15,628 bases of DNA from a virus (Duplodnaviria > Heunggongvirae > Uroviricota > Caudoviricetes). Location of the stretch: the IMG/VR virus record IMGVR_UViG_2724679293_000002, one strand, 5' to 3'. This document shows positions 3,168 to 4,354 of the stretch, one piece after another. Made by a program: the position numbers and the translations under genes. The notes beneath the pieces were generated by a model that saw only the letters and a program-made list of their open reading frames with translations, was not told the DNA's origin and ran no database searches. Each line of letters begins with the position of its first letter. The first letter of the stretch is position 1.

Positions 3168-3362
3168 TCATCCATCATCACTTTGGATTGATGTATATGC
3201 TCTCTTTTCTGACGTTAGTCTCCGACGGCAGGCTTCAATGACCCAGGCTGAGAAATTCCCAGACCCTTTTTGCTCAAGAGCGATGTTAATTTGTTCAATC
3301 ATTTGGTTAGGAAAGCGGATGTTGCGGGTTGTTGTTCTGCGGGTTCTGTTCTTCGTTGACAT
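3168..3362 (-). CDS. Small ribbon-helix-helix-like DNA-binding protein (YlcI-like), 64 aa
   Basis: MSTKNRTRRTTTRNIRFPNQMIEQINIALEQKGSGNFSAWVIEACRRRL reads as a basic N-terminal arm, a beta strand (IRFP), helix A, a Gly loop and helix B. A homologous small ORF lies at the extreme right end of lambda and next to nohD in DLP12, from memory. Confidence 0.7.
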   Translation of the reverse strand: MSTKNRTRRTTTRNIRFPNQMIEQINIALEQKGSGNFSAWVIEACRRRLTSEKRAYTSIQSDDG

Positions 3363-3526
3363 GAGGTTGCCCCGTATTCAGTGTCGCTGATTTGTATTGT
3401 CTGAAGTTGTTTTTACGTTAAGTTGACGCAGATCAATTAATACGATACCTGCGTCATAATTGATTATTTGACGTGGTTTGATGGCGTAGATGCACGTTGT
3501 GACATGTAGATGATAATTATTATCAT

Positions 3527-3598
3527 TTTGCGGGTCCTTTCCGGCGATCCGACAGGTTACGGGGCGGCGACCTCGCGGGTTTTCGCTATTTATGAAAA
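3527..3598. other. cos: cos site: cosQ region and cosN, with the 12-nt cohesive end GGGCGGCGACCT at 3562-3573
   Basis: gggtcctttccggcgatccgacaggttacg | GGGCGGCGACCT | cgcgggttttcgctatttatgaaaattttccgg matches the lambda right-end/left-end junction as I recall it. Confidence 0.9.
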
Positions 3599-3609
3599 TT
3601 TTCCGGGAT

Positions 3610-3711
3610 CCATGTCCGGTTTCTCTTCAAGTTAACTATATGAAAAATATAAAAACAGGTCTTCTGTGAACCGGACATGAACAAAAAACAGACATGTAAA
3701 CCGGACATGAC
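3610..3711. repeat. cosB-position repeat array: three copies of G(A/T)AACCGGACATG(A/G), one inverted and two direct
   Basis: The core CCGGACATG occurs at 3671-3679 and 3701-3709 and as its reverse complement at 3611-3619. An A-tract-rich spacer (3624-3660) separates the inverted copy from the direct copies. No lambda R-site motif (cgtttcc / ggaaacg) is present. Confidence 0.5.
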
Positions 3712-3794
3712 CGGTTTTGTTGTGATTGTGAGGTGAGAGTTTTTGCGAGGTGAGGAGTGGCTACGCAGACTGAAGTTGCCAGGCATTTAAGTCT

Positions 3795-3800
3795 NNNNNN
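3795..3800. other. Run of six ambiguous bases (N), 8 bp upstream of the Nu1 start codon
   Basis: The sequence reads gtctnnnnnnaatgaacaATG. Confidence 0.95.
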
Positions 3801-3808
3801 AATGAACA

Positions 3809-4328
3809 ATGGAAGTCAACAAAAAGCAGCTGGCTGACATTTTCGGCGCGAGTATCCGTACCATTCAGAACTGGCAGGAGCAGGGAATGCCCGTTCTGCG
3901 GGGTGGTGGCAAGGGTAATGAAGTGCTTTATGACTCTGCCGCCGCCATAAAATGGTATGCCGAAAGGGATGCTGAAATTGAGAACGAAAAGCTGCGCCGG
4001 GAAGTTGAAGAACTGCGGCAGGCCAGCGAGACAGATCTCCAGCCAGGGACTATTGAGTACGAACGCCATCGACTTACGCGTGCGCAGGCCGACGCACAGG
4101 AGCTGAAAAATGCCAGAGACTCCGCTGAAGTGGTGGAAACCGCATTCTGTACTTTCGTGCTGTCGCGGATCGCAGGTGAAATTGCCAGTATTCTCGACGG
4201 GATCCCCCTGTCGGTGCAGCGGCGTTTTCCGGAACTGGAAAACCGACATGTTGATTTCCTGAAACGGGATATCATCAAAGCCATGAACAAAGCAGCCGCG
4301 CTGGATGAACTGATACCGGGGTTGCTGA

Positions 4329-4354
<26 letters not shown>
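3809..4354 (+). CDS. nu1: Terminase small subunit Nu1 (lambda type), 181 aa
   Basis: MEVNKKQLADIFGASIRTIQNWQEQGMPVLRGGGKGNEVLYDSAA... is a winged helix-turn-helix DNA-binding domain with an ATP-binding Lys motif. Residues L40, A92 and Q97 match the lambda Nu1 positions known from cosB-suppressor genetics. Confidence 0.95.

What the first reader, a model, noticed from the sequence alone, without database searches (positions are those of the whole stretch)
3168..3480. Ribbon-helix-helix-like small gene divergent from cos, with interleaved inverted repeats upstream
The 64-aa minus-strand protein has the pattern of an Arc/MetJ/CopG-type RHH DNA binder (basic arm, IRFP strand, two helices separated by a Gly loop). 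Its upstream region, which is also the cosQ-proximal right end, contains two 8-bp inverted-repeat pairs in an interleaved arrangement: tgacgcag (3424-3431) with ctgcgtca (3449-3456), and atcaatta (3432-3439) with taattgat (3457-3464). A further TTGACG copy sits at 3469-3474. These look like operator half-sites rather than a simple hairpin. A small DNA-binding protein encoded at the chromosome end next to the packaging site is poorly characterised; it could autoregulate or influence events at cos.
Basis: partly seen in the sequence, partly recalled or inferred. Interest (0 to 1): 0.45.

Follow-up and report, generated by a model that had tools for sequence, protein, structure and literature searches.

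The report
Small DNA-binding repressor gene beside cos
A 64-residue gene next to the DNA-packaging site of a lambda-like prophage is real and strongly conserved; it most likely encodes a small ribbon-helix-helix-type repressor that binds a short palindrome upstream of its own start, which would give a function to a protein family (DUF3950) found in most E. coli genomes.

Summary
TTGACG is at 3468-3473. The perfect first 8-bp pair is a minority allele and is 7/8 in lambda, DLP12 and most copies.

The ORF (3168-3362, minus) is a genuine gene of the YlcI/YnfO (DUF3950) family. dN/dS is 0.02-0.11 against saturated synonymous sites. Its lambda homolog is not annotated in NC_001416.

The interleaved arrangement is not the conserved feature. 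What is conserved is one palindrome, TTGAY-N4-RTCAA (3423-3436). It occurs once per locus, 73-76 bp upstream of the ATG, including in Salmonella and Citrobacter homologs whose flanks I could not align by eye.

Satellite-borne homologs have three palindromic 12-mers at fixed positions. Their centres co-vary with N-arm/beta-strand residues only.

Most likely this is a small repressor acting at its own upstream region. A role at cos is not supported. Function is inferred and nothing was tested experimentally.

The parts
3168..3362 (-). ylcI/ynfO-family gene (DUF3950), 64 aa. The predicted layout is an N-terminal arm and strand (residues about 10-18, TRNIRFP), helix 19-32, a loop, then helix 37-60. 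The tail after residue 50 is hypervariable across the family.
   Evidence: ORF. Pfam PF13132 scores 72.8 bits against a cut-off of 25. NCBIfam YlcI_YnfO_N scores 37.6 against 30. phrog_949. dN/dS is 0.02-0.11. AF2 model.
3370..3373 (-). Ribosome-binding site (GGGG on the gene strand).
   Evidence: Position transferred from the annotated phage 434 record. It is an annotation, not tested here.
3423..3436 (.). Palindrome TTGAC-GCAG-ATCAA (TTGAT-GCAG-ATCAA in lambda and most copies). This is the candidate operator, 61-74 bp upstream of the ATG. On the gene strand its 5' arm reads TTGATC and could double as a -35 hexamer.
   Evidence: It is the only match in the 15.6-kb window, against 0.06 expected. 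It occurs once per locus at -73 to -76 in the lambda type, the L178 type, Salmonella L052 and Citrobacter L077. It lies in the upstream block that stays conserved between the lambda type and the L178 type.
3424..3464 (.).
   Evidence: Exact in this window. The first pair is 7/8 in most copies. The right-hand block 3449-3464 is not conserved in the L178 type.
3468..3473 (+). A further TTGACG copy. With CGTCA at 3452-3456 it forms an inverted repeat with a 12-bp spacer.
   Evidence: Read from the sequence. No conservation test beyond the lambda type.
3511..3525 (.). Perfect 7-1-7 Fur box, TGATAAT-T-ATTATCA, between the gene and cosQ. It is a neighbour of the unit and its membership in the unit is uncertain.
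   Evidence: Palindrome. The same element in K-12 DLP12 and Qin is the published nohB/nohA Fur site. nohA was gel-shifted with Fur and nohB was predicted at 25.3 bits (PMC2189734). The coordinate correspondence with DLP12 was checked on L171.

Best explanation
The 64-aa ORF is a real gene of the YlcI/YnfO (DUF3950) family.

Proposed mechanism:
- The product is most likely a dimeric ribbon-helix-helix-type DNA-binding protein. Its N-terminal arm and strand (TTTRNIRF) would read DNA.
- Its most probable target is the palindrome TTGAY-N4-RTCAA, 61-74 bp upstream of its own start codon (window 3423-3436).
- Binding there would repress its own leftward promoter. It might also repress rightward transcription towards cos and Nu1.
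- The gene is transcribed against the late operon, so it is probably expressed from the resident prophage rather than as a late gene.

Status of each step:
- Shown here: coding status, family membership, conserved gene position, position-specific conservation of the palindrome, and N-arm/operator covariation in homologs.
- Inferred: the fold, DNA binding, repression, the promoter position, and the time of expression.
For: 1. Coding.
- 23-26 of 28-31 differences fall at codon position 3.
- dN/dS is 0.02-0.11 while dS is 0.75-2.5.
- The sense frame always scores lower than the wobble-sharing antisense frame.

2. Fold.
- The AF2 model built on a 33-sequence alignment has pLDDT 70-83 over residues 11-50. 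It shows an extended N-terminus and helices 19-32 and 37-60.
- Five of six Foldseek PDB hits are RHH proteins, as I recognise them: Arc, NikR twice, VapB and CdbA.
- A CopG-family RHH chain aligns in the expected register at E 0.4.
- NIRFP aligns with NLRWP of Arc.
- R16, F37 and V41 are invariant in all three alignments; I15 and S38 are invariant or nearly so.

3. Operator.
- TTGAT-N4-ATCAA occurs once per locus, 73-76 bp before the ATG.
- This holds in four lineages, two of which have flanks I could not align by eye.
- It lies in the only upstream block conserved between lineages whose synonymous sites are saturated.

4. Homologs in satellites.
- They carry three palindromic GTG-N6-CAC sites at about -99, -76 and -30.
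- Operator-centre identity is 0.72 for pairs that share two strand residues and 0.43 otherwise. No label permutation out of 10,000 reached this difference.
- The correlation is r 0.58 with those residues and r 0.04 with the rest of the protein.
- The association is confined to residues 3-14.

5. Expression.
- ylcI is transcribed in uninduced K-12. A convergent ybcW-ylcI transcript overlap was reported from RNA-seq (PMC12288877).
Against: - The model is a monomer, so the defining intersubunit sheet cannot be seen.
- No sigma-70-like promoter passes the scanner on the minus strand. The best hand-scored -10 in the lambda type is poor.
- HK97-type prophage copies have the same recognition strand but no such palindrome nearby.
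- The operators and codons 1-14 lie within 150 bp of each other. The covariation could therefore reflect co-inheritance of one mosaic DNA segment.
- I curated the operator sequences by eye.
- TTGAT/ATCAA could simply be two facing -35 hexamers.
Confidence: 0.55

Rival explanations
1. The protein is an accessory of DNA packaging. It would bind near the right chromosome end or the terminase and affect cos cleavage or the end of packaging.
For: - The gene always sits directly upstream of, and divergent from, the first packaging gene. This holds for two unrelated terminase types: Nu1-gpA (L178-L180) and HNH-Terminase_2-TerL (L172-L177).
- Satellites encode complete 120-129-aa proteins that fuse a DUF3950 N-terminus to a Pfam Terminase_2 match.
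Against: - Homologs exist as stand-alone chromosomal genes (L052, L077) and inside satellite regulatory regions away from any cos.
- In HK97-type prophages an HNH gene lies between the homolog and cos.
- The repeats are outside the cos block shared with phages 21 and phi80.
- The spacing between the palindrome and cos is not kept, with a 7-bp indel in the L178 type. The spacing to the ATG is kept.
Confidence: 0.12
2. The inverted repeats act as RNA. They would form a hairpin in the late mRNA (plus strand) or in the 5' leader of the small gene (minus strand), and would not be protein-binding DNA sites.
For: - The 66-nt stretch folds better than shuffles on both strands: z -3.06 on plus and z -2.79 on minus.
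- The common C-to-T allele at 3427 keeps a G-U pair in the plus-strand RNA.
Against: - The partner arms (3449-3464) are missing in the L178 type although the gene and the palindrome are kept.
- Other natural variants break pairing on one strand or the other, with no compensatory changes.
- The longer leader has z -0.68.
- There is no Rfam match.
Confidence: 0.08
3. The protein is an RHH antitoxin of a toxin-antitoxin pair carried by the prophage.
Against: - No co-directional partner gene follows or precedes it, here or in the other prophage contexts examined. The neighbours are a plus-strand Rha-family gene and cos.
- The fold hits are at the level of the shared RHH fold only.
Confidence: 0.04
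4. The protein is real and conserved but does not bind DNA. The upstream palindrome would then be two facing -35-like hexamers or the site of a host factor.
For: - TTGAT resembles the -35 consensus. In Salmonella L055 the arm gives TTGACT-17-TTTACT.
- A confirmed host-factor (Fur) site lies 75 bp away.
- All fold evidence is below significance.
Against: - Strict N4 spacing and a fixed distance to the ATG are kept in contexts I could not align.
- Three co-varying operators are present in satellite homologs.
Confidence: 0.15

Closest known systems
YlcI (DLP12) and YnfO (Qin) of E. coli K-12; Pfam DUF3950 / NCBIfam YlcI_YnfO_N
   Same: Same family. The match is above both curated cut-offs. The gene has the same position between the lysis genes and the Nu1 homolog, and DLP12 has the same upstream sequence.
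   Different: Nothing of substance differs. The family has no assigned function in the literature I could search.
Arc and Mnt repressors of phage P22 (Arc/MetJ ribbon-helix-helix superfamily)
   Same: These are small phage proteins. The N-terminal strand motif NLRWP resembles NIRFP here. They have two helices, and palindromic operators in a region of divergent promoters (from my own knowledge of Arc and Mnt). Arc is the top Foldseek hit.
   Different: There is no significant sequence or profile similarity. The palindrome here is 14 bp with 5-bp arms. The genomic place differs: next to the packaging genes, not in an antirepressor region.
CopG of plasmid pMV158 (RHH autorepressor whose operator covers the -35 box)
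   Same: Both would be small RHH autorepressors with a pseudo-symmetric operator over the -35 hexamer (from my own knowledge). A CopG-family chain is the best RHH sequence hit, in register.
   Different: The hit has E 0.4 and is not significant. The promoter here is not mapped.
Rpp of E. coli phage-inducible chromosomal islands (PMC6739421)
   Same: It is a satellite protein built on a terminase-small-subunit-like DNA-binding domain. That is conceptually close to the DUF3950-Terminase_2 fusions seen in satellites.
   Different: Rpp has a winged helix-turn-helix like lambda Nu1 and no DUF3950 domain. The window gene has no terminase-like part.

Membership tests
DUF3950 / YlcI-YnfO family | Match to Pfam PF13132 and NCBIfam NF041551 above their curated cut-offs. 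| tested here: met
   72.8 bits against 25 and 37.6 bits against 30.
DUF3950 / YlcI-YnfO family | Conserved FSAW motif at the start of the second helix. | tested here: met
   NFSAWV at residues 36-41. F37 and V41 are invariant in all three alignments; S38 is invariant or nearly so.
Ribbon-helix-helix (Arc/MetJ/CopG) superfamily | Strand-helix-helix topology in about 45 residues. | tested here: inconclusive
   The AF2 monomer shows an extended N-terminus plus helices 19-32 and 37-60, with pLDDT 70-83 in the core. The strand cannot be assigned without the partner chain.
Ribbon-helix-helix (Arc/MetJ/CopG) superfamily | Significant sequence, profile or structure similarity to known members. | tested here: not met
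Ribbon-helix-helix (Arc/MetJ/CopG) superfamily | Obligate dimer with an intersubunit antiparallel sheet. | not testable with these tools
   No multimer prediction was available.
Ribbon-helix-helix (Arc/MetJ/CopG) superfamily | DNA sequence read by N-terminal arm and strand residues. | tested here: inconclusive
   In satellite homologs the operator centres co-vary with residues 3-14 only. This is indirect, and it is confounded by physical linkage of operators and N-terminal codons.
Ribbon-helix-helix (Arc/MetJ/CopG) superfamily | G-x-S/T/N type turn that N-caps helix B. | tested here: met
   The loop ends N36-F37-S38, and S38 is invariant or nearly so. This is a loose motif.
Lambda cos subsites (cosQ, cosN, cosB, R4) | Lies within the cos block conserved among lambda, 21 and phi80. 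| tested here: not met
   Shared similarity with 21 and phi80 starts at about 3505-3511. The repeats end at 3473.
Type II toxin-antitoxin (RHH antitoxin) | Adjacent co-directional toxin gene. | tested here: not met
   No conserved partner ORF in the window or in L172-L180.

The most novel reading that the evidence does not exclude
DUF3950 proteins would be a previously unrecognised family of ribbon-helix-helix switch repressors.
- In P4/PICI-like satellites they would be the repressor of a three-operator divergent-promoter switch, with specificity set by two or three strand residues.
- In lambdoid prophages the same protein would sit as a guard in front of the packaging genes. It would keep stray transcription out of the terminase genes in a lysogen, whose chromosome contains a cuttable cos.
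Probability: 0.25. Interest if true: 0.65.

Novelty: new member of a known kind. Interest (0 to 1): 0.5.

Why it matters
- DNA matching this stretch (the gene plus cos and the start of Nu1) is found in 4,636 of 5,426 complete E. coli genomes. The gene is also present in phage lambda itself, where the reference record does not annotate it. No function is described in the literature I could search.
- A testable assignment follows: a small repressor with a defined 14-bp site.
- That assignment gives a direct experiment for a conserved gene in the best-studied phage.
- The satellite homologs offer a natural set of protein-operator specificity variants.
- They also give a candidate repressor for enterobacterial phage satellites.

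Tried and rejected
- **Single-sequence AF2 model.** pLDDT 60, too poor to use.
- **BFVD fold search.** Uninformative.
- **afdb50 library.** Not available.
- **Rfam.** Only a chance-level PrrF hit in the window. Nothing at gathering score in five satellite loci, so I dropped the idea that a C4/IsrK-type RNA lies beside the satellite operators.
- **Shared operator word.** I looked for one across the lambda-type, L178-type and HK97-type upstream regions. Nothing longer than 6 nt was shared.
- **The name orf-64.** In lambda it belongs to lambdap73, between Q and S. It must not be used for this gene.
- **Rpp.** I considered that the DUF3950-Terminase_2 fusions are Rpp. They are not, because Rpp is a winged helix-turn-helix protein.
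- **Long antisense ORFs over satellite homologs.** They lie in the frame whose wobble positions coincide with the sense frame, and they vary from 50 to 430 aa. I treat them as shadow ORFs.
- **First automated operator extraction.** It mis-registered sites and gave a weak signal. I replaced it with sites curated.
- **Lambda ribosome-profiling paper.** Not held, under the PMC id I recalled.
- **CII-consensus site at 3397-3410.** It is annotated in phage 434 by consensus only, and it points rightwards. I did not pursue it.

Full report
**Setting.** The window is the lysis-to-packaging junction of a lambdoid prophage. It is identical over 695 bp to prophages of E. coli O145 strains. The gene order is:
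- holin, 1076-1282
- lysozyme, 1282-1779
- Rz, 1764-2213
- a Rha-family regulator, 2363-2980
- the 64-aa ORF on the opposite strand, 3168-3362
- cos
- Nu1 (3809-4354) and gpA

By transfer from the annotated phage 434 record, cosQ (GGGTCCT) is at 3532-3538. The 12-nt cohesive end begins at 3562; I placed it from my recollection of the lambda end sequence.

**Observation.** Both 8-bp inverted pairs are exact at the stated coordinates. Two adjacent perfect pairs in this interleaved arrangement did not arise in 20,000 dinucleotide-preserving shuffles of the intergenic stretch. That test was chosen after the pattern had been seen. Among about 90 related loci, only a minority carry the G that makes the first pair perfect. 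Lambda, DLP12 and most others read TTGATGCAG.

**The gene is real.**
- It matches Pfam DUF3950 (E 2e-20), NCBIfam YlcI_YnfO_N and phrog_949.
- Copies from three prophage backgrounds are over 90% identical in residues 1-50, while their synonymous sites are saturated.
- For example, window against L172 has 25 of 30 differences at codon position 3, dS about 2.0 and dN/dS 0.03.
- The sense frame always gives a lower ratio than the antisense frame that shares its wobble positions.
- The tail after residue 50 is hypervariable.
- Lambda has a homolog that differs in three residues of the C-terminal tail, at 48109-48303 on the minus strand. The reference record NC_001416 does not annotate it.
- The lambda name orf-64 belongs to a different ORF, lambdap73.
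- I found no paper that assigns a function to YlcI, YnfO or DUF3950.
- ylcI is transcribed in uninduced K-12, as part of a convergent transcript overlap with ybcW (PMC12288877).

**Fold.**
- With a 33-sequence alignment, AlphaFold2 gives pLDDT 70-83 for residues 11-50. The N-terminus is extended and there are helices at 19-32 and 37-60.
- Foldseek against the PDB returns six hits. Five are, as I recognise them, ribbon-helix-helix proteins: Arc, NikR twice, VapB and CdbA. All have E above 1.
- A profile search of PDB sequences finds a CopG-family RHH chain in the expected register at E 0.4.
- NIRFP aligns with NLRWP of Arc.
- None of this is significant on its own. The monomer model cannot show the intersubunit sheet that defines the fold.
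- I therefore treat the protein as working like an RHH protein, supported at about 0.8. Membership of the superfamily is not established.

**Position in genomes.** In prophages the gene always lies between the lysis genes and the packaging genes. It is on the strand opposite to the late operon and directly upstream of the first packaging gene.
- With a Nu1-gpA module, about 390 bp containing cos lie in between (L178-L180).
- With an HNH-Terminase_2-TerL module, the HNH start is only 41 bp away (L172-L177).
- More distant homologs (34-60% identity) are stand-alone chromosomal genes, for example in Salmonella L052 and Citrobacter L077. Others lie in P4/PICI-like satellites beside integrase-like and AlpA-like ORFs and genes I read as Bro/Ant- and Icd-like, with primase in L006-L008.

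**What is conserved upstream.** I aligned the lambda type with the L178 type, whose gene is saturated at synonymous sites.
- The first 95 bp or so upstream of the ATG remain about 80% identical, and the spacing to the ATG is kept.
- Similarity returns only at the Fur box and cosQ.
- At the far edge of the conserved block lies TTGAT-CTGC-ATCAA. In this window it is TTGAC-GCAG-ATCAA at 3423-3436.

The pattern TTGAT-N4-ATCAA occurs exactly once per locus. It starts 74, 73, 76 and 76 bp before the ATG in the lambda type, the L178 type, Salmonella L052 and Citrobacter L077. I could not align the flanks of the last two to lambda by eye. In the 15.6-kb window the degenerate pattern has this single match, against 0.06 expected. 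The interleaved picture comes from a second, non-conserved block in which the same two words occur in the other order.

**Satellite homologs.** Upstream of 23 satellite-borne homologs there are three palindromic 12-mers of the form GTG-N6-CAC, at about -99, -76 and -30. In most, the middle one is followed by GTCAA.
- Within an element the sites share a centre. Between elements the centres differ.
- Pairs of elements that share the two residues predicted to face DNA (positions 12 and 14, by alignment with Arc Q9 and N11) have 0.72 operator-centre identity. Other pairs have 0.43. No label permutation out of 10,000 reached this difference.
- Operator identity correlates with these residues (r 0.58) and not with the rest of the protein (r 0.04).
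- L082 and L058 are 97% identical over the sampled helix segments, yet have LYKG with GTGCTTAAACAC and ATKK with GTGCGGCCACAC.
- Position by position, the association is confined to residues 3-14 and vanishes from residue 15 on.
- This is the pattern expected if the N-terminal arm and strand read the operator.

Caveats:
- I curated the sites by eye.
- The sequences are related by descent.
- The operators lie within 150 bp of codons 1-14, so a mosaic DNA module could give the same result.

**Mechanism proposed.** A dimer, or a dimer of dimers, binds the palindrome upstream of its own gene. On the gene strand the palindrome's 5' arm reads TTGATC and resembles a -35 hexamer. In Salmonella L055 it gives TTGACT-17-TTTACT. 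Binding would therefore occlude the gene's own promoter. The -10 in the lambda type is weak, and the scanner finds no minus-strand promoter, so the promoter remains unmapped. Whether the protein also controls rightward transcription towards cos and Nu1 is open.

**Against the model.** HK97-type copies have the same strand sequence but no such palindrome within the locus.

**Rivals.**
- A packaging role is suggested by the gene's position and by the DUF3950-Terminase_2 fusions. It is weakened by homologs far from any cos, and by the fact that spacing to cos is not kept.
- An RNA hairpin is possible in this allele (z about -3), but its partner arms are not conserved.
- An antitoxin role lacks a partner gene.

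**Verdict.** It is partly right about operators and unsupported about cos. This is a new functional assignment within a known kind of protein. It rests on inference and nothing was tested experimentally.

Noticed in passing
window 3511-3525: There is a perfect 7-1-7 Fur box (TGATAAT-T-ATTATCA) just left of cosQ. A plus-strand promoter-like site, GTGACA-16-TATCAT at 3499-3526, overlaps it. The same element in K-12 is the published Fur site of nohA (gel-shifted) and nohB (predicted) (PMC2189734). Which of the two divergent genes it controls is not settled.
   Followed up: partly
window 3600-3790: The cosB region differs from lambda. It has repeated CCGGACATG words at about 3610, 3672, 3701 and 3711 instead of the lambda R sites as I recall them. 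Yet, from my recollection of lambda Nu1, the Nu1 N-terminus here is almost identical to it. L178, L179 and L180 join three different cosB versions to the same ylcI-upstream block.
   Followed up: no
window 3795-3800: There is a run of six N just before the Nu1 start codon. This is masked or unresolved sequence.
   Followed up: no
L011-L040, and proteins P0001-P0120: Contigs of about 3.5 kb carrying this gene appear in assemblies of Streptomyces, Cohnella, Pedobacter and other unrelated taxa; several near-identical proteins are labelled Staphylococcus aureus. They are lambda right-end DNA, most likely sequencing-control contamination. Frameshifted noisy copies inflate the family's cluster counts.
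   Followed up: partly
L006 4001-4390; L007 4001-4363: Satellites encode complete 120-129-aa proteins with a DUF3950 N-terminus fused to a Pfam Terminase_2 match, which I read as the helix-turn-helix part of a terminase small subunit. They lie between an integrase/short-ORF pair and a primase operon. They may be an analogue of Rpp for helpers with HK97-type terminases.
   Followed up: partly
L051-L087, 100 to 20 bp upstream of the homolog: Satellite homologs show a three-operator layout (GTG-N6-CAC at -99, -76 and -30). A TTGAC word on the opposite strand lies next to the middle site. A conserved GC-rich hairpin-like element lies about 150 bp upstream. It looks like a divergent-promoter switch.
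   Followed up: partly
L002 (lambda 46300-48502): The lambda reference record annotates lambdap79 on the plus strand at 47738-47944 and does not annotate the DUF3950 gene at 48109-48303 on the minus strand. In a CRISPRi screen p79 scored as essential, which the authors attribute to polarity (PMC10695390).
   Followed up: no
L007 6696-7776: A satellite appears to be inserted into the terminase small-subunit gene of an HK97-type prophage. It leaves a 61-aa fragment next to HNH and the prophage's own DUF3950 gene. This fits the helper-embedded satellites described in bioRxiv 10.1101/2022.07.18.500453.
   Followed up: no
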